Source: Neophaeotheca triangularis
Taxonomy: Eukaryota
Reading direction: 5' to 3'
NCBI GenBank assembly: GCA_054600435.1
Contig: BAAIJX010000040.1
Span: 62,001-126,000, forward strand
Length of the DNA stretch: 64,000 nucleotides
This document shows positions 10,246 to 57,206 of the stretch, one piece after another. The translations under genes and the position numbers were made by a program. Under the pieces are notes generated by a model, which searched no databases, was not told where the DNA came from, and saw only the letters and a list, made by a program, of their open reading frames with translations. Position 1 is the stretch's first letter; every line of letters starts with the position of its first letter.

Positions 10246-11817
10246 ATGGCTCCTCAACGTCACCCAGACGAGCCATACCGCTCCTCCCCAGACCCTCTAC
10301 ACCCTGCTCGGGCTGGGCCGACAGAAACAAACATGTCAACAAGATCCTACGCGGCCAACTCTTGGATTGAAGTGTCGTCGCAGCCCTCATCCTCTTCTTT
10401 ATCTTCCATAGCCGAGAACGCACCATCGAGCCGCACCCACCACGATCCCCGCAATCCGCGACGCAAACGCACCGTCGGTCGTGGCAGCATTCACGGCCAA
10501 CAGGGACCTAGCACTACACGTGAGAACAACGGCAAAGGATCGAGTAGTCAAGAAGAATACTCTGAGAGCTCATCGGAAAGCGATCACATCCTTTCTTCCT
10601 CCGGTGAAGGTTTACCAAACATACCCACCATTCATTACAACACGAACCAGCCTCCGCAATTACAGAGAGGTTCAAGCTACTCCAGCGTGCCTTTCTCTTC
10701 TTCGTCTGACGACGAGAACCGTACAGCCGTCAACCATCCCCTCAGCTCCCACCGTCGAGATAGAAACAACGAAGCCTGCTTCACGCCCCAGCCAAATGCC
10801 TTCTCGCACCCTCCCAGCGCAAGCCACATGCGGAATGCCTCCCAGCCCGCGCCAGGTTCCTACTTTTCTTACCAAACAACAAGTCGACCAGCTCCTCGGC
10901 AGCAAAAGCAGCAAGACATCAGCAGCCACGCTCCCCCACCCTTTCAAGCCGCTGCTCGACACGACGAAGCACTAAGAGCAAGCCTCTCCACACTCCTATC
11001 CTGTGCAGCAGCCGCCAGGGGACTAAGCAAATCTCAAACCGCACCCAACAGCAAAGAAGACAGTCTCAAACGTCCACCAACAACAACAACAACAAGCGCC
11101 GCGCAACCCCACGCCCAGCGCTCCCGCAACCAAATCGACCCCACGAGCCTCCGCCTCGTACCCGAAAGCGCTCTCCCGGGAGCACGCAACCGACAACCGC
11201 AACCGAAAGCCAACAACCTTGGGGAGCCAATCTTCTCCCCAACCCTCCGCCGCACGTCCACCCCCTCCTCCCCCTCCTCCCCACAACCCTCAAACGCCGT
11301 GCACCCAAAACGCAAAAGCCAGCCCCGCACCTCTTCACGCCCCAAACGCCGCCGCTCCCGCCCTCACTCCCCCTCCTCGCGCTCCTCCAGCCTCTCCCTT
11401 TCATCCCAAACCCAGCAAAACCCCAACAACTCTTCCAACTTCAACTCCTCAGACCCCGTAACCCCGACCCTCTTGACCTGGGTCCTCAGCGCGGGCGTCG
11501 TGGTGGTCTTTTCCGCTCTTAGCTTTGGCGCGGGTTTCGCCATGGGGAGGGAGAGTAACGGGGCCGAGGCGGGGAATTGCGGGTTTTGGGAAGGGGGGGA
11601 GTGGGTTGGGGCGGCTAGTGGGAGAGGGGCGGCTGTGGGTGTGGGTGTAGGTGTTGGGAGTGGGAGTGGGAGTGGGAGTGGGAGTGGGAGTGGGAGTTGC
11701 GCCAGGGAATTCATCGGCGTGGGGGGTGGAGGAGGCGGTGGTGGTGGTGGTGTGGGAGGGGGATTGGGCGGACGGGGCCTTTTGAGGCGTGAGATTGCCG
11801 GTGTGGGACAAGTCTAA
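10246..11817 (+). CDS. Hypothetical protein: disordered Ser/Pro-rich body, N-terminal LIR/AIM-like motif, C-terminal transmembrane anchor
   Basis: ATG at 10246. SWIEV at 10360-10374, helix HDEALRASLSTLLSCAAAARGL, TM segment PTLLTWVLSAGVVVVFSALSFGAGFAMGRE (~11464-11553), Gly/Ser-rich tail. Confidence 0.8.
   Translation: MAPQRHPDEPYRSSPDPLHPARAGPTETNMSTRSYAANSWIEVSSQPSSSSLSSIAENAPSSRTHHDPRNPRRKRTVGRGSIHGQQGPSTTRENNGKGSSSQEEYSESSSESDHILSSSGEGLPNIPTIHYNTNQPPQLQRGSSYSSVPFSSSSDDENRTAVNHPLSSHRRDRNNEACFTPQPNAFSHPPSASHMRNASQPAPGSYFSYQTTSRPAPRQQKQQDISSHAPPPFQAAARHDEALRASLSTLLSCAAAARGLSKSQTAPNSKEDSLKRPPTTTTTSAAQPHAQRSRNQIDPTSLRLVPESALPGARNRQPQPKANNLGEPIFSPTLRRTSTPSSPSSPQPSNAVHPKRKSQPRTSSRPKRRRSRPHSPSSRSSSLSLSSQTQQNPNNSSNFNSSDPVTPTLLTWVLSAGVVVVFSALSFGAGFAMGRESNGAEAGNCGFWEGGEWVGAASGRGAAVGVGVGVGSGSGSGSGSGSGSCAREFIGVGGGGGGGGGGVGGGLGGRGLLRREIAGVGQV
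11656..11697 (+). repeat. (GGGAGT)n coding microsatellite encoding Gly-Ser repeats
   Basis: About 7 consecutive GGGAGT units read directly. Confidence 0.85.
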
Positions 11818-12093
11818 ATTTCGCGTCCTCTTTTTCTTTTGCCAGTTGAGGGTACCGGAGCGTGCTAATCATGGACGCTCGGAGCGCTCGCTCGCCTGAC
11901 TTCTCGGTTCTTCCTTCTACTAGCCAGTCCCAGCTATTCCTTAACTCCAGTCTAGACTCCGTCTGCTTCACTTCACCACTCTTTCTTCCCCTCGCTCGTC
12001 GTGCAAACTATCTACCTGCCCACTCCTCTCATTCCGTCCGCTCTCTCGACTTTTCTTTCTTCTTATACCTCGCCGCATTGTCCGTCGCCTCGA

Positions 12094-12114
12094 CTCTCTC
12101 TCTCTCTCTCTCTC
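12094..12114. repeat. (CT)n microsatellite
   Basis: About 10 CT units read directly. Confidence 0.85.
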
Positions 12115-12717
12115 TTGAGATCCTAGGCTCTCGCGCTTCCATATCAAATGAAACCACCTAGTCAGCCAAAAATCCCAATCCAAAACCAAACCCCCCAAAG
12201 CGCCCGCGATTACCTACACTAAACCAGTAAGGGCCACTGGGCCATCTATCCCTCCCTCTCGGGTTCAAGTCCAACTACTCGGGCAAAGTGAGTTGTTGTC
12301 ATTCCGGCTGCTCTTTGCCTCAGGGTGTCCATGCGGATTCATGGAGACTTGCTTGCTTACTTATTATTGGGGCCGAAGGGGGAGGAAAGGGTTTTGCTGC
12401 TTTTTGGAGGTGGTGAGGAGAGGACGTATGTGGGTTTGAGTGAATGTGTTTCGACATGTGCTGCGCCTGGAGCTGTTTTTTTTTTTTTTTCAACAAGTTT
12501 AGCGAGCATAGCGCAGTAGTGGCGAAGTGTCGATGGGGCTTGCTGGGGGAAAAAACTACTCTGACCTCCCTCTTCACCCCTCCGCAGACTGCCTAGCTTC
12601 ACAGCAGCCAGCAGCCCAACGACATCTGCTCTCCCTTCTCGATCGACTTTTCGCCCACAAGCACCTTCCCAACTCCCATCCAACCCACCCGCCCGCCTCT
12701 CCAGTCTCGGAAACCCT

Positions 12718-50396: not shown

Positions 50397-53300
50397 CTAG
50401 CCATTAGCGCCGCCATCGTTCTGCCCGCCCATCTGACCACCCTCGCCACCGCGCATCCTCTTCTCGTCGCCGGTATGCTCAGTTGGGTTACTTCTCTTCT
50501 GGCCCGCGTTGGCAGCCATGCCACCACCACGCTGAGCACCACCACCTCGACCGCCGCGAGGAAGGCCGGAAGCGTTGCCGCCGCCGCGCCCTTGCGAATG
50601 TCCGCCGGCGCGCGGGAGGCCGGAAGCGTTGTTGGCGCCTCGGTTGGCAGGGCCTGGGAGTCTGCTGCCAGCTGGTTGGGGAAGACCGGAGCCACGACCT
50701 GGACCGGGTCCGCCTTGCTGCGGCTGCTGCTGTTGGTTGGAAGCACCTGCGAAGTTGAAAGAGGGCGCAGTGGGATTCTTGCCGGGCTGACCAAAACTGC
50801 CTTGACCTTGGGGCTTGGCTGGCAAACCAGCCGAGGGCTTGCCAAAAGAACTTCCCATGGTCATGGACGGAGAAGGCTGTTTCACAGCGCCGAAGCGAGC
50901 AGCGCGCTCTTGCATCTTCTGCTGTTCAGAGCTCTGCGGTTGTGGTGCTTGCTGTGGAGTTCCCTGTTTTTGTTGGGTTTCAGACTCTTGAGATGGTTCA
51001 GCAGCAGGGGCAGCTTGAGCAGCAGAGGTGGGAGTCTTGGTAGGCGACTGTTGCTCGATGTTAGTCGCGGATTGCTTCCTGTCAGTGTTCGTCTCCGCGC
51101 TGCCAGTAGTCTCCTGCTTCACCTGAGTGGAAGCCGGAGCAGGTGAGCTAGCGGAGCCACCAGTCTTGGAAGCAGTAGAAGGCGTCGCTGGAGCAGGCTT
51201 CTGGGAGTTCGGCAGCGGAGGCGCCTTGACCTTGGCCGCAACGTCGAAAGCTGGCTTGAGAGGCTGGTCGGGGGCCTCCTTGACGGCGGCTTCGAGAGCC
51301 GTCCACTGGGCCTTTGCATTTCTACCTACAGCGACAAAGACGTCTTTCTTCTTGCTCTCCATGAGTGCCTGCTGCTTCTCCTTGGCAAGAGTTTCCTTTT
51401 CGGCGTTGAGCGTTTCCTTTTCGGAATTGAGCGTCTCGAGCTGCGCTTTGAGTTCGTCGCGCTCGCGAGTGACAGACTCGAGCTGCTGGCGGAGCAAGTC
51501 GCCGTCGTCGGAAGGCGATGCGTTCTTGATGTCCTGCTCGAGCTGAGCGATCTTGGCATCTTTCTCCGCGATGAGCTGTTCGCGTTGAGCCTCGAGCTCT
51601 GCGATGCGGGCACGATGGGTCTCAGAGTGCTTCTTGACGTTGTTCTGAATCACCGTACGCAAGAAGGGGCTCCTCTTAAGCAAGTCCCTAGCCTGCTCGT
51701 CGGTTAGTTCAGAGTCGTCAGAGCCCGCCTTCGGCGGCGCCGTCGCTTCGGATTGATCGCCTGCCTCTCCCTCAGCCACGCTCTGGCCAGCGCTGGCCTC
51801 CGTGACCCTCTTAAGCTCTGCTTCAAAGTCCACCTTCAACTTCTCAACAGCCGCCGCGTGCTCCTCCTTCAACTGGACAACCACTGCATCATGCTCTTCG
51901 CGCAACTTCTGCAGCTCGGCGTTGTGTTCATCTTGAGACTCTGTCGTTAGCGTCTCGCGGTACTGTTTGCGCTCCTCCTTCAGCCTCTCACGAAGTTGGT
52001 CCTTCATCCTCGCAATGCGCTCGTCGCGGTTTTGTTCCACCTGCTTGATGGCTACTTCGTGCTGGGCTTCCAGTTCTTGCCGTAGCTTTGCACACTCCTC
52101 GGCAACCTGGTCGGCCACGGATCGCTCGCCTTCGGCAGGTTCGGCATTGGTCGTAGTAGAGTCGCCAGTGGATGCAGCGTTCGCGCGGAGAGCCTCGAGC
52201 TCTTGCTGTGCGGTCTCGAGCTGGCTGCGGACATTCTCCAGGAGGTCAACATCCTCATTCGACTTGGAAGTTTCGGCCGTAGCTTCAACCTGCGTGTTGG
52301 CACTTGCAGACTTTGCGGTCTCAAGCTCGCCCTGCAACTGAGTAGCCTGGTTCTGCAGCTGCGACACCTGGCCCTCGAGCTCTTGAACACGCGTTTGCAG
52401 CGTTTGAACTTCGACAGACAAAGCCTCTGCACGCCCAGAGTGGTTGCTGGCATGTTGTTCAGCCTCCGCAATGCGCGCGTGCAAAGCAGCGTGATCTGAC
52501 TCGCCGTCCTCGTTGACCTCACCCTCCTCTTGTCCTCCAGCATTGACAGAAGCCTTCGCCCTAGCGTCCTCCAGGTCCCTCTGCGCCTGCTCCAGCTCTG
52601 CAACCTTTGCCGCCAATTGTCCATCTGTCTCTTCCTTAGCCGCATTTGCGGTGGCGACCGACGCATTCGCAGCTTCGACATTACCACGCATTTCAGTCAG
52701 ACGCTCGTTTTGCTTCCGATTCTGCTCTTTAGCCTGAGCCTTGAACTTGGTCAAAGTCTCCGAATGCTTGGCCGTCGCCTCTTGCACAGCCGTGGCGACT
52801 GTAGCGTCAAAAGCCTCGATCTTTTCTCGGAGAGGAGCGGTCTCTGCCTCCAGACGCACTTCAAAGGCATCAATCTGCTCCTGCAACGGCACCCGCTCGT
52901 TCTCCAGGCGCTCCTTGTCGGCCTCCAGGTCTGTGATTTGCTGCTTGATACGAGTCAACTCCTCGGCGTCGACGACACCATGCTTGTTCATGAGCCTGTG
53001 GGTACGATCGCGCCAGTTGTTGCGGTCCTCGGTCGTCAAACGCAGATCTTGATCCTTGTATTCCATGTTGGTTTCCAGCTCGAAAACCTGCTGCTTCAAT
53101 GGTTCAAGCTCTTCGCGAAGTTTCTCGACTTCCTTCTCCCGAGCCTCAAGCTTCTCACGGGTCCTGCGGGCTTCGTCGCGGAGGTGGACAGTGCTCTCGC
53201 GGTAAGTGTTCAGCTCTCGCAGAGTCTCCTCGAGCTGGGAGAAGACGGTTGGGTTGCTAATCTTCGCCTCGGAAGCCCTAATCTCCTCGCGCAGCTTCTC

Positions 53301-56300
53301 ACGAGCCTTCTCCATCTCATCCCTGGCGTACTGGAGCTCGTGTTGATAGCGGCGCGAATCGCGCTTCTCCTTGTCGTGATTGACTTGCAGCATCTCCTTC
53401 TCGCGGCGAAGGTAGTCGATCACGGCTTGCATGCCGCTTTCGTCATGCTGGTAAGCACTTGCAGGACCACCGGTTAAGGAATTCAGACGGTTTTGGCGAA
53501 TGGTTTCGAGCTCTGAGGCATACTTCTTCAGCTGATCGTGCAGGTTGTTAATATGATCATCGGCCGAATCCTTCCTCATACGAGCATCGCGAAGCTGCTC
53601 TTCGAGTTGTTCCTGAAGACCCTCCCAGTTGTTCTTGGCGGTGTCAAGCTCGTCCTTAGCGGTCATGGCGGCCACCTTGAGTTCGTGAGACTTCTCGCGG
53701 AGTTCGTTGTACTCCTTCTTCGTGTTGTTCAGAGACTGTGTGGCCTCCGCGTGGCGAACGAGCTCTTCCTCATAGTGAGTCTGCGCGGTCCGCGCAATCT
53801 CGCCTTGGGCTTTAAGATCCTCCACAAACGCCTTACGCTCTTCGCTGAATCGTGTAGCGTCGTCTTCGAGCTTGACGATCTTGGCCTCGAGTGTGCGTTT
53901 CTGCTCAGCAAAGTCGCGATTGCTATCCTCTTGCTGTTCCTTGAGTTCAGCCAGCTCGCTGTTGGCCTGAGTCAACTCGGTAGTGAGATCAACAACGCGC
54001 TGCTCAAGCTCTGCGATGCGAGCATCCTTGGTAGCAATCAGTTCATCCATCTCCTCCTGATAGGCTTCGCTGGACTCGTTCAGAGCATCGAGATCTTCTT
54101 GAGTTTGCTTGGCAATTTGGTTCATGTTGTTGTACTGCTCACGCGAACGCTCGAGGTCTTCTTCGGCGTAGCGCAGTTTAGTCTTCAGGTCATCGACTTC
54201 GGAACGACGACGCTCCTCCACCTCCCACTCGTCGTCCTGAGGCTGGAAGTACCGCAATTTGTCTTGAGCAGCGGTGAGCTGAGTAGACAGCTCGTCGATT
54301 CGGGCCTGCTTCTCCGCCTTGACGCCGTCGAAATTGGAGATTTGCAGGCGGAGAGGCTCGATAGTCTTCATCATCTCATCGCTGCGGTCGCGGAAACGCT
54401 GCTTCTCGAAGGCATACTTCTCAGACTCTCGCTTCAGTTCCGCGGCGAGCTCACTGCGTTCCTTTCTGACTGTGTCCCTCTCTTCCTTCACCTCCTTGAA
54501 CTGGTCCAAGGTGGTACGCATCGCCTCGTCATGCTGTAGGTTGCGCTCGCTTGACAGACGCTCCACATCTTGAATCTTGCTCTGCCACTCCTCGCGCTCG
54601 GTACGAATCTTCTCCAGGTCAGAGATGGCATGCTGCTTCGCGTCTTCCAGTGTCTTCTGGTGGTCTTTGAGGCTTTCGATCTTCTGCTCAAGACTGGAAA
54701 CCTTGGCTTTGAACTCAACCACGTCTTCTGAAAGTGCAATAGCCTTGAAGTCGAGAGCCTTGTTATGGTTCTCGAGCTCATGTGAGTGCTTGCGAAGCTC
54801 GGTGTGCTCGGCTTGAAGGGCTTTGTAGTTGTCGGTGTAAACGCTCAAACGACCTTCGGCGGAGTAGACTTGGCCCTGGGCCTTGGTAAGTTCGGCTTGC
54901 ATATTGTTGAGCTCGGTCTTGAGAGCGTTCTCTTTCTCTCGCATCTCCTTGTAGGCGTTTTCGCGGAAATTGTCGAAGGCAATGGTTTGCTCCTTCAGCA
55001 CTTGAGCCTGAGCTTCAGCCGCTGCTTGGGCGGCTCGAGCTGTCGACGGGGTTTGGGGAACTGCAGGCTCAGACTGGTTCTGCGGTCCTGGAGTAGTAGG
55101 CGCGGCACTCTGACCGAACAGCTGATGGATGTCGTCCTGGTTCATGCCATCGGGAAGACGGCCACGACTCTTGAGGATGCGACGGTACATGTTGCGCTCT
55201 TGTACATAGCTTTCGACGGTCGTGAGAAGCGACTCGGCTTGCTCCTTGTAGTACTCCCGACTCTTCCTGAGACTCTCGGTCTCTTCGCCGTCTTGCTCAA
55301 CTCTGCGGTTCTTCTCTGCCTTCATGGCGTCAACCTTCTCGGCAGCGTCACGCACAGTCCTGAGCAGGCGCTCGTTCTGTTGTTGCATCTGGGTGGCAGT
55401 TCTGAAAGCGACGAGGTTCTCGCTAACGAAGCGAGTCCCGTTGTCAGGGTCGAGAATGTCGAGTGTCGCGTTGTCGAACTGGCCACGGGCGGCACGCTCC
55501 AGAGCGACGCTCTCGTCAAAAGTCGGCTCGGCCATGCCTTGTTCCCGGCGAATTTGCTCAGTAACGAGGAGCTTGATTTGAACGCAGTGGTCGCGAAGTT
55601 GTTGGCTCTTCAGCTCGTTCTCGCGCGCAAACCCGGCGGCCTCATCCCTCCAGCGGCCTTCAGCCTTCTTCGCCTCATCACGAGCCTTGTGCGCTTCTTC
55701 GAGCGTCAAAGAGTACTGGTAAACTTCATTCTCCAAACGCTCTTGCTCTTCCCTCATCTTCTCAACGTCTGGCTTCCGCGCCTCCAGCTCATTCATCATG
55801 TCCTCCAAGCTCTTCTGCAGTCGCTCACAACGTCGGCCCTCTGCAGCAAGCTCTTCGGTCAGATCGTTATTCTGGTCGGAGAGTTGCTGCCAAGAAAGCT
55901 CATGCTGAGGACGCCCTGTCCTGGAGTTCATGGGAGTGCCGGCTTGGGAGGCGTTGAATTTGGACGGCGTTGGTTTGCTGGATTTGAACATCCTGGAGGG
56001 TGTCATCTTGGACGGGGTCGCAAAATGGCTGCTCATGCGCCGATTTGCGATAGTGGCCTGGCGAGGTGTGCGGAGCGAGTCCTGGAGCTGCTCTTCGAGG
56101 TCCTTGACTTTGATCTCAAGATCGGCAACTTTCTGGTAGGCGTCGTTCTTGCTTGCATTCTCCTCGTCAATGTCAGCCGTCAGCTGCCCAAGCTCCTTCG
56201 TGTAGTCCTGACGTTGCGATTCCAGCTCCTTTTCAAGCTCTTGAACGCGGCCTTTGTGGGTGCGAGCGTTTTGTTCGTGCAGCTCTGCAAGGCGCTTAGT

Positions 56301-57206
56301 GGAAGCTATGTCCTCGCGCAGGTTGCGCTCGTTAGTCGCAGACTTCTCCTGCAAGGCTGTGATTCTTGCGTAAGCCTCCTCAGCTTTGGTCTGCATCTCG
56401 TCAAGGCGCTTGCGAAGACCTGACTCGGTACGCTTGAGATTATCCGTGTTGGTGGTGGCATCCTCAAGTTCACGCTCAAGTTCAGCAAGGCGGGCATTGC
56501 GCTCCTTGCGGTACTTGGTGTGGTCTGCGCCACGGGTCTCAAGCTCAGTTGCCTGCCACTCGGTGTGCTGCTTCAGCTGAGTAATCTCTTGCTGTAGCCC
56601 TTGCTCTTTGAACTTCTGAGAGGAAACCGAGTTCTCGAGAGACTGATTGCGCTCTGCCAGGCTGCTAACCTCGCGACGGAGAGCAACCAACTTTTCATGC
56701 TGTTCCTTGAGCTCAGCGTTCATGCTATCCTTCTCGTTGGCCCGGCTCTCCATAAGGTTCTTCAAGTCGAGATTGCTAGCCTCGAGCGTATCAATCCTTG
56801 AGCGAAGAGCTCCTGCCTCTGCGGTGCTGCCGGATGAAGTAGCCTGAAGGGTGTCGAGCTCCTGGGTGAGGTTGTCGACCTTGGCGTTGGCTTCGGTGAG
56901 CTGAGCTTTGGTTGTCTTGAGCTCGTCCGCATGCTTGGTGATGGTAGCTTTCTGCGTCTTGGCTTTGTTTTCGGAAGTGCGAACAGCATGTTCGAACTCG
57001 ACCTCCACACGGAGCTTCTCAGACTTTAGCTTTTCCATGTCTTGAGCTTTGTGAATAGCTGCCTCAATGAAGGTCTTAGCCCCATCGGCAGTGGGATTGT
57101 TGAGTAGGTTCTTGACATCTTCTTCGCCCAGTTCGAAGCAATTGGCGATGTACTGCGTGTCCGCGATGAGGTCCGACCCATCGGCCGCCTGCGCGCGGGT
57201 GCGCAT
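50397..57206 (-). CDS. MLP1: Nuclear basket coiled-coil protein Mlp1/Tpr
   Basis: About 2269-aa intronless coiled-coil ORF from ATG 57206. Contains SENLVAFRT..MQQQNERLL, AQTHYEEELVRHAEA, VIDYLRREKEML, ELNTYRESTVHLR, WRDRT and a disordered RGG-containing tail. Confidence 0.9.
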   Translation of the reverse strand: MRTRAQAADGSDLIADTQYIANCFELGEEDVKNLLNNPTADGAKTFIEAAIHKAQDMEKLKSEKLRVEVEFEHAVRTSENKAKTQKATITKHADELKTTKAQLTEANAKVDNLTQELDTLQATSSGSTAEAGALRSRIDTLEASNLDLKNLMESRANEKDSMNAELKEQHEKLVALRREVSSLAERNQSLENSVSSQKFKEQGLQQEITQLKQHTEWQATELETRGADHTKYRKERNARLAELERELEDATTNTDNLKRTESGLRKRLDEMQTKAEEAYARITALQEKSATNERNLREDIASTKRLAELHEQNARTHKGRVQELEKELESQRQDYTKELGQLTADIDEENASKNDAYQKVADLEIKVKDLEEQLQDSLRTPRQATIANRRMSSHFATPSKMTPSRMFKSSKPTPSKFNASQAGTPMNSRTGRPQHELSWQQLSDQNNDLTEELAAEGRRCERLQKSLEDMMNELEARKPDVEKMREEQERLENEVYQYSLTLEEAHKARDEAKKAEGRWRDEAAGFARENELKSQQLRDHCVQIKLLVTEQIRREQGMAEPTFDESVALERAARGQFDNATLDILDPDNGTRFVSENLVAFRTATQMQQQNERLLRTVRDAAEKVDAMKAEKNRRVEQDGEETESLRKSREYYKEQAESLLTTVESYVQERNMYRRILKSRGRLPDGMNQDDIHQLFGQSAAPTTPGPQNQSEPAVPQTPSTARAAQAAAEAQAQVLKEQTIAFDNFRENAYKEMREKENALKTELNNMQAELTKAQGQVYSAEGRLSVYTDNYKALQAEHTELRKHSHELENHNKALDFKAIALSEDVVEFKAKVSSLEQKIESLKDHQKTLEDAKQHAISDLEKIRTEREEWQSKIQDVERLSSERNLQHDEAMRTTLDQFKEVKEERDTVRKERSELAAELKRESEKYAFEKQRFRDRSDEMMKTIEPLRLQISNFDGVKAEKQARIDELSTQLTAAQDKLRYFQPQDDEWEVEERRRSEVDDLKTKLRYAEEDLERSREQYNNMNQIAKQTQEDLDALNESSEAYQEEMDELIATKDARIAELEQRVVDLTTELTQANSELAELKEQQEDSNRDFAEQKRTLEAKIVKLEDDATRFSEERKAFVEDLKAQGEIARTAQTHYEEELVRHAEATQSLNNTKKEYNELREKSHELKVAAMTAKDELDTAKNNWEGLQEQLEEQLRDARMRKDSADDHINNLHDQLKKYASELETIRQNRLNSLTGGPASAYQHDESGMQAVIDYLRREKEMLQVNHDKEKRDSRRYQHELQYARDEMEKAREKLREEIRASEAKISNPTVFSQLEETLRELNTYRESTVHLRDEARRTREKLEAREKEVEKLREELEPLKQQVFELETNMEYKDQDLRLTTEDRNNWRDRTHRLMNKHGVVDAEELTRIKQQITDLEADKERLENERVPLQEQIDAFEVRLEAETAPLREKIEAFDATVATAVQEATAKHSETLTKFKAQAKEQNRKQNERLTEMRGNVEAANASVATANAAKEETDGQLAAKVAELEQAQRDLEDARAKASVNAGGQEEGEVNEDGESDHAALHARIAEAEQHASNHSGRAEALSVEVQTLQTRVQELEGQVSQLQNQATQLQGELETAKSASANTQVEATAETSKSNEDVDLLENVRSQLETAQQELEALRANAASTGDSTTTNAEPAEGERSVADQVAEECAKLRQELEAQHEVAIKQVEQNRDERIARMKDQLRERLKEERKQYRETLTTESQDEHNAELQKLREEHDAVVVQLKEEHAAAVEKLKVDFEAELKRVTEASAGQSVAEGEAGDQSEATAPPKAGSDDSELTDEQARDLLKRSPFLRTVIQNNVKKHSETHRARIAELEAQREQLIAEKDAKIAQLEQDIKNASPSDDGDLLRQQLESVTRERDELKAQLETLNSEKETLNAEKETLAKEKQQALMESKKKDVFVAVGRNAKAQWTALEAAVKEAPDQPLKPAFDVAAKVKAPPLPNSQKPAPATPSTASKTGGSASSPAPASTQVKQETTGSAETNTDRKQSATNIEQQSPTKTPTSAAQAAPAAEPSQESETQQKQGTPQQAPQPQSSEQQKMQERAARFGAVKQPSPSMTMGSSFGKPSAGLPAKPQGQGSFGQPGKNPTAPSFNFAGASNQQQQPQQGGPGPGRGSGLPQPAGSRLPGPANRGANNASGLPRAGGHSQGRGGGNASGLPRGGRGGGAQRGGGMAANAGQKRSNPTEHTGDEKRMRGGEGGQMGGQNDGGANG

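What the first reader, a model, noticed from the sequence alone, without database searches (positions are those of the whole stretch)
10246..11817. Uncharacterised protein with BNIP3/NIX-like architecture: candidate filamentous-fungal mitophagy receptor
Seen: ANSWIEVSSQPSSSS near the N-terminus (W-x-x-V flanked by serines), about 370 aa of mostly disordered sequence with one helix (HDEALRASLSTLLSCAAAARGL), and one TM segment ending SALSFGAGFAMGRE. Established: BNIP3/NIX carry an N-terminal SWVEL LIR regulated by flanking Ser phosphorylation and a TM ending SHLLAIGLGIYIGRR (GxGxxxGR, dimerising); budding-yeast Atg32 has no clear filamentous-fungal orthologue. Inference: both ends match the BNIP3 pattern in the right order, so this may be an Atg8-binding organelle receptor. 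Caveat: the post-TM tail (~85 aa, Gly-rich) is longer than in BNIP3.
Basis: partly seen in the sequence, partly recalled or inferred. Interest (0 to 1): 0.72.

Follow-up and report, generated by a model that had tools for sequence, protein, structure and literature searches.

The report
Candidate membrane-anchored fungal autophagy receptor
This mould gene encodes a mostly disordered, membrane-anchored protein from a widespread but uncharacterised family of filamentous ascomycetes, and its strongly conserved short motif looks like the tag that organelle-recycling receptors use to grip Atg8, so it is a testable candidate for a receptor missing in these fungi, although binding and location are unproven.

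Summary
Window 10246-11817 is a single-copy 523-aa ORF: W40-I-E-V before a serine run, disorder, one helix (233-257), one TM helix (407-435). It belongs to an uncharacterised Pezizomycotina family (N. crassa NCU03091, S. macrospora SMAC_02823). W-x-x-[VIL] is kept in 486 of 529 homologues; 38 of the 43 exceptions are gene calls that start downstream of it. It is almost always [DE]-S-W-[IV]-[ED]-[IVL], inside poorly conserved disorder. The TM ends small-xxx-G-xxx-G-[RK], in register with BNIP3.

It is not a BNIP3 family member by any test run: no Pfam BNIP3 match, no TM histidine (0 of 516), no BH3 core, 42-55-aa tail. An acidic block followed by [VIL][LM][ST]SS resembles yeast Atg11-binding sites, but the strict (I/V)LS form is in only 26 of 482.

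Best reading: a convergent, phospho-regulated, Atg8-binding organelle receptor (about 0.5); mitochondria are the leading cargo (about 0.28 overall), ER or nuclear envelope next. Binding and location were not shown, and two more-conserved blocks are unexplained. No paper searched names the orthologues.

The parts
10246..11817 (+). Intronless ORF, 523 aa (P0001), member of an uncharacterised Pezizomycotina family; second possible start at Met30 (10333)
10357..10407 (+). AIM/LIR-like block, residues 38-54: core W40-I-E-V (10363-10374), Ser at -1, then S-x-P-S-S-S-S-L-S-S run
   Evidence: W-x-x-[VIL] in 486 of 529 homologues; position table of 485 sites; block conservation 0.84 against 0.11-0.18 in linkers (on A2, whose rows were chosen for having the W)
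10459..10473 (+). Basic patch, residues 72-76 (poly-Arg in the family); role unexplained
   Evidence: R75 95%, block conservation 0.81
10543..10608 (+). Acidic Ser/Glu block (100-113, several S-x-x-E/D CK2-type sites, consensus recalled) followed by I-L-S-S-S-G-E (115-121), resembling an Atg11-binding region
   Evidence: [IVL][LM][ST]SS in 393 of 482, strict (I/V)LS in 26 of 482; (I/V)LS consensus from PMC5792711 passages
10780..10815 (+). Conserved F-T-P-Q-P-N-A-F-S-H-P-P block (179-190); partner unknown
   Evidence: F-x-P-x-P-N-x-F-[ST] in 506 of 533; conservation 0.88
10942..11016 (+). Predicted cytosolic helix (233-257), the most conserved block of the family; no BH3 core
   Evidence: AlphaFold2; conservation 0.90; BH3-type core in 0 of 487
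11305..11361 (+). Two basic clusters (354-372) on the cytosolic side of the TM: bipartite-NLS-like or positive-inside/targeting charge
   Evidence: 437 of 452 homologues; median net +8 in the 60 aa before the TM
11470..11550 (+). Single TM helix (409-434) ending in S426-xxx-G430-xxx-G434-R435 zipper
   Evidence: G430 99%, G434 99%, 426 S/G/T 100%, 435 R/K 94% in A2
11548..11814 (+). Post-TM tail, 89 aa, Gly-expanded here; keeps the family's C-A-R-E (11698-11709) and basic L-R-R...V end

Best explanation
A Pezizomycotina-specific, single-pass membrane protein that works as a selective-autophagy receptor, convergent with BNIP3/NIX, Atg32 and Atg43 and not detectably homologous to them. Shown from sequence: one C-terminal TM helix, about 400 disordered residues before it, and islands of conservation led by [DE]-S-W-[IV]-[ED]-[IVL] plus a Ser run. 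Inferred: the N-terminus faces the cytosol; W40 and V43 enter the two hydrophobic pockets of Atg8; phosphorylation of S39 and the Ser run raises affinity, as for BNIP3 S17; the acidic block and [VIL][LM][ST]SS, about 74 aa downstream, are a CK2-type switch that recruits Atg11; the glycine zipper dimerises the TM. Cargo: mitochondria are the leading guess (about 0.55 given a receptor, so about 0.28 overall), ER/nuclear envelope about 0.3, peroxisome about 0.15. The confidence given is for a receptor of any organelle.
For: AIM core kept in 486 of 529 homologues, with named members in Dothideomycetes, Sordariomycetes, Leotiomycetes, Eurotiomycetes, Lecanoromycetes and Pezizomycetes. 474 of 484 homologous sites fit the stricter xLIR pattern (pattern recalled). 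Ser at -1 in 99% and acidic at -2 in 100% of 485 sites; BNIP3 has Ser17-Trp18-Val19 and S17 phosphorylation promotes LC3 binding (PMC8519931 passages). [quoted passage not shown] Atg11-binding regions contain (I/V)LS, CK2-phosphorylated in Atg32 (PMC5792711 passages); the query has I-L-S-S-S after an acidic block. TM GxxxG motifs occur in NIX, FUNDC1 and Atg32 (PMC8700663 passages). Moderately hydrophobic TM and net-positive tail (median +4) lean mitochondrial (rule from PMC10200711 and PMC10883272 passages). The genome has Atg8 and Atg11; its Atg43-family gene has no aromatic residue in its first 82 aa, so no N-terminal AIM, and filamentous fungi have no clear Atg32 orthologue (PMC7711908 passage).
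Against: No experiment on any member was found. AIM cores are short and common. Conservation runs for 17 residues, far beyond what an AIM needs, and two other blocks (helix 238-262, F-T-P-Q-P-N-A-F) are as conserved or more so and are unexplained. The strict (I/V)LS form is in only 26 of 482. The ULK1-type Leu/Met three residues before the Ser is not conserved (Leu 7%; consensus). The first 10 tail residues have median net charge 0 and the query's whole tail is net 0, which weakens the mitochondrial cue, and a 42-55-aa tail is longer than the short tails on which that rule rests. One Aspergillus niger model reads W-I-E-N and one unnamed call has the Ser run without the Trp; both look mis-spliced but their DNA was not checked. 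Homologue counts are of related, unevenly sampled sequences.
Confidence: 0.5

Rival explanations
1. A membrane-anchored, phospho-regulated scaffold unrelated to autophagy: the Trp/Ser-run block, the F-T-P-Q-P-N-A-F block and the helix are docking sites for kinases, phosphatases or a ligase, and the AIM likeness is incidental.
For: Near-invariant 17-residue block and two further blocks at 0.88-0.90 conservation that a simple receptor does not need; generic AIM cores are common; many disordered single-pass fungal proteins are scaffolds (own knowledge).
Against: The exact positions that define an AIM (W at 0, aliphatic at +3, acidic at -2 and +2) are the ones held, and they survive where the Ser run has decayed, as in the Tuber and Blumeria members; a second receptor-type motif lies at a near-constant 64-96 aa.
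Confidence: 0.35
2. A receptor as in the best explanation, but for ER or nuclear envelope (Atg39/Epr1/Npr1-like) and not mitochondria. This is a subset of the best explanation's 0.5.
For: Bipartite basic clusters before the TM in 437 of 452 and a poly-Arg patch; a 42-55-aa tail with a conserved Cys and a basic, moderately amphipathic end, recalling Atg39's second membrane-binding region (PMC8789198, listing and abstract start only); A. oryzae degrades whole nuclei by autophagy and receptors there are largely unknown (PMC12005406 whole text). BNIP3 itself shifts to the ER with one TM change.
Against: Moderate TM hydrophobicity and net-positive tail in the family fit mitochondria or peroxisomes better; basic clusters before a TM are also expected from the positive-inside rule (own knowledge).
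Confidence: 0.15
3. It binds Atg8 through the motif but is not a cargo receptor: it is itself a regulated substrate, or a membrane tether or regulator of Atg8 lipidation sites.
For: AIMs occur in non-receptor proteins (own knowledge); the strict Atg11 motif is a minority form.
Against: Layout and a candidate second adaptor site match organelle receptors.
Confidence: 0.1
4. A true, remote homologue of animal BNIP3/NIX.
For: S-W-[VI]-E-aliphatic at one end and small-xxx-G-xxx-G-R at the other, in the same register.
Against: No BNIP3 match among the 25 of 46 Pfam families shown for 105 members at E up to 10 (those not shown are single-member hits weaker than E 0.58); PF06553 found nothing in G000 (whose control did not ring either); profile against PDB sequences 0 hits; no His in 516 TMs and a hydrophobic residue at the S172-equivalent position in 515 of 516; named members are all Pezizomycotina; about 430 aa against about 190 (BNIP3 length from the 184-position Pfam model).
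Confidence: 0.03

Closest known systems
BNIP3 / NIX (BNIP3L), Pfam PF06553, animal mitophagy receptors
   Same: Ser-Trp-[Val/Ile] LIR-type motif near the N-terminus with flanking serines; disordered body; one C-terminal TM ending in a tandem small-xxx-G-xxx-G followed by Arg.
   Different: No sequence match; no TM His or S172-equivalent polar residue (a Ser sits one position later, 501 of 516); no BH3-type core; tail 42-55 aa, so not a classic tail anchor; over twice as long; ULK1-type Leu not conserved.
Atg32 (Saccharomyces cerevisiae mitophagy receptor)
   Same: AIM followed by an (I/V)LS-type motif in a CK2-type acidic setting; single TM with a GxxxG; a substantial C-terminal tail (Atg32 TM 389-411; PMC9980689, PMC5792711, PMC8700663 passages).
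   Different: No folded pseudo-receiver domain is predicted (domain known from a reference title); strict (I/V)LS only in 26 of 482; no yeast member appeared among named hits. Direct comparison with Atg32 was not run.
Atg43 (Schizosaccharomyces pombe; Pfam PF08589)
   Same: N-terminal AIM, disordered linker, C-terminal TM.
   Different: No PF08589 match for the query; the genome's own PF08589 gene lies elsewhere and lacks an N-terminal AIM.
Atg39 / Epr1 / Npr1 (yeast ER and nuclear-envelope receptors)
   Same: AIM-bearing organelle receptors; Atg39 is single-pass with a cytosolic N-terminal AIM and an Atg11 site.
   Different: No sequence match; the family's tail is short and net positive. Npr1 is multi-pass (abstract start).
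Filamentous-fungal Atg8 interactors already published: MoAti1, MoAtg24, AeiA, NBR1
   Same: Same pathway and organisms.
   Different: MoAti1 is a SUN-family peripheral protein, MoAtg24 a PX-BAR sorting nexin, AeiA has no TM and ends in a peroxisomal signal, NBR1 is the conserved pexophagy receptor. None is this family; PTS1-like ends in 0 of 516.

Membership tests
BNIP3/NIX family | Match to Pfam PF06553 or to solved BNIP3/NIX chains | tested here: not met
   HMMER filters drop most matches above E 0.1; 21 weak single-member families were not displayed
BNIP3/NIX family | N-terminal Ser-Trp-Val LIR with flanking serines | tested here: met
   S(-1) 99%, W 100%, V/I(+1) about 100%, aliphatic(+3) 100% of 485 sites; BNIP3 positions
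BNIP3/NIX family | TM tandem GxxxG-type motif | tested here: met
   G430 and G434 99% each in A2; small residue four before in 516 of 516, R/K after in 509 of 516 (the anchor pattern itself requires the two Gly)
BNIP3/NIX family | Polar Ser172/His173 hydrogen-bond node in the TM (S172; His173 from the finding's quoted string and recall) | tested here: not met
   His in 0 of 516 TMs; position 422 is V/F/L/I in 515 of 516, position 423 Ser in 501 of 516
BNIP3/NIX family | BH3-like segment | tested here: not met
   L-xxx-[GA]-[DE] (pattern recalled) in 0 of 487 helix blocks
BNIP3/NIX family | Tail-anchored topology with a very short C-terminal tail | tested here: not met
   tail median 48 aa, range 22-93; query 89 aa
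BNIP3/NIX family | Profile-profile similarity to a BNIP3 alignment | not tested
Atg32 family | (I/V)LS Atg11-binding motif with CK2-type acidic context | tested here: inconclusive
   query I115-L-S; strict form 26 of 482, loose [IVL][LM][ST]SS 393 of 482; consensus
Atg32 family | Folded pseudo-receiver domain before the TM | tested here: not met
   model has only helices 233-257 and 407-435; Foldseek on PDB 0 matches (low-confidence model)
Atg32 family | Sequence homology to Atg32 | not tested
   no Atg32 sequence was held; no yeast name among the named hits shown
Atg43 family (PF08589) | Conserved C-terminal ATG43 domain | tested here: not met
   no match; separate gene at G000:C7:337214-337489
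Transmembrane selective-autophagy receptors (functional class) | Conserved W/F/Y-x-x-L/I/V in a disordered region plus an organelle membrane anchor | tested here: met
Transmembrane selective-autophagy receptors (functional class) | AIM-dependent binding to Atg8 and cargo-specific degradation | not testable with these tools
   needs binding assays and a deletion strain
Transmembrane selective-autophagy receptors (functional class) | Residence on a defined organelle with the AIM in the cytosol | not testable with these tools
   only sequence cues, which are mixed

The most novel reading that the evidence does not exclude
The family is the missing integral-membrane mitophagy receptor of filamentous ascomycetes: an independent invention that combines a BNIP3-type Ser-Trp LIR and dimerising glycine-zipper TM with an Atg32-type, CK2-gated Atg11 site, conserved in single copy from truffles to Neurospora, lichens and black yeasts.
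Probability: 0.28. Interest if true: 0.8.

Novelty: new member of a known kind. Interest (0 to 1): 0.56.

Why it matters
Filamentous ascomycetes carry out mitophagy, pexophagy and whole-nucleus autophagy, yet have no clear Atg32, Atg30 or Atg36 orthologue (PMC7711908 passages), and their Atg43-like proteins lack the AIM-bearing part (PMC7609059 passages). The factors I found published for them are a sorting nexin, a peripheral SUN protein, a TM-less peroxisomal protein and NBR1. A conserved integral-membrane receptor would fill that gap for whichever organelle it serves and would be another case of convergence on the AIM-linker-TM plan. The question becomes directly testable: named orthologues in two tractable non-pathogenic models, one residue to mutate (the invariant Trp), and a second candidate site for Atg11.

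Tried and rejected
Complex prediction of a stand-in Atg8 (L006:148-495, metagenome contig; 2 differences from the genome's own first exon by eye, 100% over residues 1-86 of the second-exon query) with residues 26-125: no verdict, scores 0.21 and 0.25 against a mark of 0.34, controls not folded, alignments not used; not evidence either way. Pfam: 0 families for the query; only weak compositional hits for 105 members. PDB by sequence: 0 hits for the profile, the AIM region and the TM region at E up to 10. Foldseek on PDB: 0 matches, low-confidence model. ESM Atlas: three unnamed ascomycete clusters at 0.92-0.97 for P0037, no structural match above TM 0.21; no usable hit among named clusters. Gene-ID search of full texts (NCU03091, SMAC_02823 and four more): 0 papers. 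Supplements: SMAC_02823 absent from PMC7550108 (19 files, one cut when stored; a positive control ID was found), from 12 of 24 files of PMC13557503 and from PMC8468769, so the idea of STRIPAK/Far-type regulation got no support. The 32 MoAtg8 two-hybrid candidates (14 hypothetical) could not be checked because no M. oryzae orthologue ID was obtained. No phosphopeptide of NCU03091 was found in the three held files of PMC6838226. RNA run X3 covers only two short pieces at depth about 3.5 and shows nothing about transcription or splicing. No published threshold for the TM-tendency score was retrieved, so the value 18.9 (scale recalled) is not interpreted. A FFAT-like reading of E-E-Y-[ED]-E-S was considered and left untested. 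The NCBI model with a spliced C-terminus was rejected on motif grounds, although the profile bit score did not favour the unspliced tail (61.9 against 70.6, owing to the Gly insertion). Neighbouring genes are housekeeping and give no functional clue; synteny was not examined.
Full report
1. Observation. Window 10246-11817 (+) is one open frame of 523 aa, found once in the 25.4-Mb genome G000. It lies among housekeeping genes: ALG6-type glycosyltransferase, a two-RRM protein, a cis-prenyltransferase-like gene, COX17 and a thioredoxin. AlphaFold2 on a 105-row alignment predicts only two helices, 233-257 and 407-435 (mean pLDDT 53, pTM 0.26), and there is one hydrophobic segment. A database protein identical over the first 451 residues (P0002, labelled Neophaeotheca triangularis by NCBI) ends differently: it removes 11601-12502 as a 902-nt intron.

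2. The family. Searches returned 1,222, 1,538 and 1,676 proteins at E up to 0.001 among 8,000 scored candidates each, and 232 representatives at 50% identity; only the best 120-150 of each were listed, and I held 529 distinct homologues. Every named member is a Pezizomycotina fungus: Dothideomycetes, Sordariomycetes, Leotiomycetes (Blumeria), Eurotiomycetes (Phaeomoniella, Aspergillus niger), lichen-forming classes, Xylona and Tuber (class assignments from my own knowledge). Absence from yeasts and basidiomycetes was not tested directly. Model-organism members are N. crassa NCU03091 and S. macrospora SMAC_02823. No Pfam family, PDB chain or named Atlas cluster matches. Median length is 431 aa over 473 full-length members. 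NCU03091 is listed among the proteins of a network built from mass-spectrometry identifications, to which STRING could add up to 10 (PMC6838226: passages and one supplement row), weak evidence that the protein is made.

3. The Trp motif. Using the Ser run as an anchor independent of the Trp, 468 of 529 homologues had the anchor and 465 of these had W-x-x-[VILM] in register; the other 3 matched the anchor at a wrong place and were not inspected further. Of the 61 without the anchor, 21 still had the motif, 1 (A. niger P0245) reads W-I-E-N, 1 (P0192) has the Ser run without the Trp, and 38 are calls that begin downstream of the site. Total 486 of 529. Over 485 sites: E/D at -2 (100%), S at -1 (99%), V/I at +1, E at +2 (93%), I/V/L at +3, then S-[QR]-P-S-S-S-S-L-S-S at 94-99% for the fixed positions. 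The linkers are conserved at 0.11-0.18 against 0.84 for this block (A2 rows were picked for having the Trp, so that figure is partly circular). The bare core is weak evidence: it occurs in 30 of 32 window ORFs and 75% of shuffles; but the query's other three cores are kept in 0, 31 (inside the TM) and 0 of 104 rows. The stricter xLIR pattern (recalled) fits 474 of 484 homologous sites; the query misses it only by Asn38, and a second strain in run X2 has Asp there. BNIP3 has Ser17-Trp18-Val19, and S17 phosphorylation promotes LC3 binding; its ULK1 determinant, Leu three residues before the Ser (PMC8519931 passages), is not conserved here.

4. Other conserved islands: a poly-Arg patch (72-76); an acidic S-S-Q-E-E-Y-[ED]-E-S-E-S-E-S-D block followed by [VIL][LM][ST]SS, 64-96 aa (median 74) after the Trp; F-T-P-Q-P-N-A-F-S-H-P-P (506 of 533); the helix 238-262 (0.90, the best kept); two basic clusters before the TM (437 of 452); the TM. 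Yeast receptors bind Atg11 through (I/V)LS, phosphorylated by CK2 in Atg32 (PMC5792711 passages). The query has I-L-S-S-S-G-E, but across the family the strict form is in 26 of 482 and the loose form in 393 of 482; this is a lead, not a match. The query is a somewhat decayed member: it lacks the [DE][DE][IVL][IVL][TI]TG motif that 326 of 533 sequences carry after the Ser run.

5. The membrane anchor. In A2, G430 and G434 are 99% conserved, 426 is always Ser, Gly or Thr, and 435 is Arg or Lys in 94%. Set against BNIP3 with G430 as G180 (S172, L179 and G180 from PMC10883272 passages; the rest of the register from the string quoted in the finding), the zipper agrees but the polar node does not: no His in 516 TMs, a hydrophobic residue at the S172 position in 515, a Ser one position later in 501. 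GxxxG also occurs in the TMs of FUNDC1 and Atg32 (PMC8700663 passages) and is common in TM helices generally (own knowledge), so it does not single out BNIP3. The tail has median length 48 aa (interquartile 42-55) and net charge +4, mostly in the last 25 residues; the first 10 are neutral; the query's tail is 89 aa, Gly-expanded and net 0; no member ends in a PTS1-like tripeptide. Low TM hydrophobicity and positive tails favour mitochondria or peroxisomes over ER for tail-anchored proteins, but that rule concerns short tails, and the basic clusters could equally be a nuclear-envelope signal. Location is open.

6. How it most likely works. Shown: the layout and the conservation. Inferred: a cytosolic disordered arm presents the AIM to Atg8 on the phagophore, strengthened by Ser phosphorylation; a second, acidic phospho-site may recruit Atg11; the TM, perhaps dimerised by its zipper, fixes the arm on the cargo. 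G000 encodes Atg8 and Atg11. Its ATG43-family gene is separate and, read from the first Met of its open frame, has no aromatic residue before position 83 (introns not checked), in line with the report that the AIM-bearing part of Atg43 is limited to Schizosaccharomyces (PMC7609059 passages). I put a receptor role for some organelle at 0.5 (mitochondria 0.28, ER or nuclear envelope 0.15, peroxisome 0.07), a non-autophagy scaffold at 0.35, Atg8 binding without a receptor role at 0.1, and BNIP3 homology at 0.03. The helix and the F-T-P-Q-P-N-A-F block are not accounted for by any of these.

7. Comparison with what is known. It works like, if anything, BNIP3/NIX (LIR type, zipper) and Atg32 (AIM plus Atg11-type site, longer tail). 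It is not filed under BNIP3 (four defining features tested and not met), Atg43 (no PF08589) or Atg32 (no folded domain predicted; homology not tested). It is not MoAti1 (SUN family; PMC10938464 part 1 of 8 and Table S1), MoAtg24 (PMC9980689 passages), AeiA (PMC12005406 whole text) or NBR1. A 2026 review of fungal autophagy names no such receptor in the passages shown (PMC13208281).

8. Novelty. Searches of the held library: six gene IDs, 0 papers; mitophagy receptor + filamentous fung + Atg8 + BNIP3, 6 papers; nucleophagy + receptor + Aspergillus + Atg8-interacting, 89 papers with 30 listed; Atg32 + homolog + Pezizomycotina + mitophagy, 2; a six-term search from 2023 on, 1. None of the listings describes this family. 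Limits: subscription papers are missing, supplements are not covered by these searches, I had no Aspergillus, Fusarium or Magnaporthe IDs, bioRxiv supplements were closed, and 12 of 24 files of PMC13557503 were not searched.

9. Verdict. A real, conserved and apparently unstudied family with the anatomy of a transmembrane selective-autophagy receptor; not a BNIP3 homologue; Atg8 binding and organelle unproven. New member of a known kind; interest 0.56.

Noticed in passing
window 11601-12502: The NCBI model P0002 treats this 902-nt stretch as an intron (donor GTGGGT), replacing the conserved C-terminus with a 30-aa exon at 12504-12593; probably a mis-prediction.
   Followed up: partly
window 11624-11768: Hexamer and triplet repeats encode the Gly/Ser and poly-Gly expansion of the tail; no laid contig spans this stretch, so the repeat length is unconfirmed.
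   Followed up: partly
window 10246-11623, run X2: A second strain differs at 13 listed sites in the ORF (12 codons, 8 non-synonymous; the table was cut), including Asn38 to Asp and Ser208 to Pro, both towards the family consensus.
   Followed up: partly
L084 (G000:C7:337214-337489, -): A PF08589 ATG43-family gene whose first 82 residues hold no aromatic residue, so no N-terminal AIM.
   Followed up: partly
P0245 (Aspergillus niger), P0435, P0509, P0013 and others: Database labels such as 'glycosyl hydrolases 28', 'glucan 1,4-alpha-glucosidase' and 'REJ domain-containing' sit on members with no such Pfam domain; the A. niger model also skips several conserved blocks and looks over-spliced.
   Followed up: no
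homologues P0003, P0009, P0016, P0493: Many members seem to have an intron just before the [DE]-S-W motif (variable, Tyr-rich or extra leading segments), whereas this gene has none there; 38 automatic gene calls lose the motif altogether.
   Followed up: no
residues 55-64 (window 10408-10437): The query lacks the [DE][DE][IVL][IVL][TI]TG motif found after the Ser run in 326 of 533 sequences; this acidic-hydrophobic motif is another candidate adaptor site.
   Followed up: no
L001 1294-1782 (G000:C55): The genome's Atg8 gene has one intron after codon 30 and a short extension after the conjugation Gly.
   Followed up: no
window 50400-57206 (-): A 2,269-aa ORF coincides with a strong AT skew (about -0.25 over 50-56 kb); not examined.
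   Followed up: no
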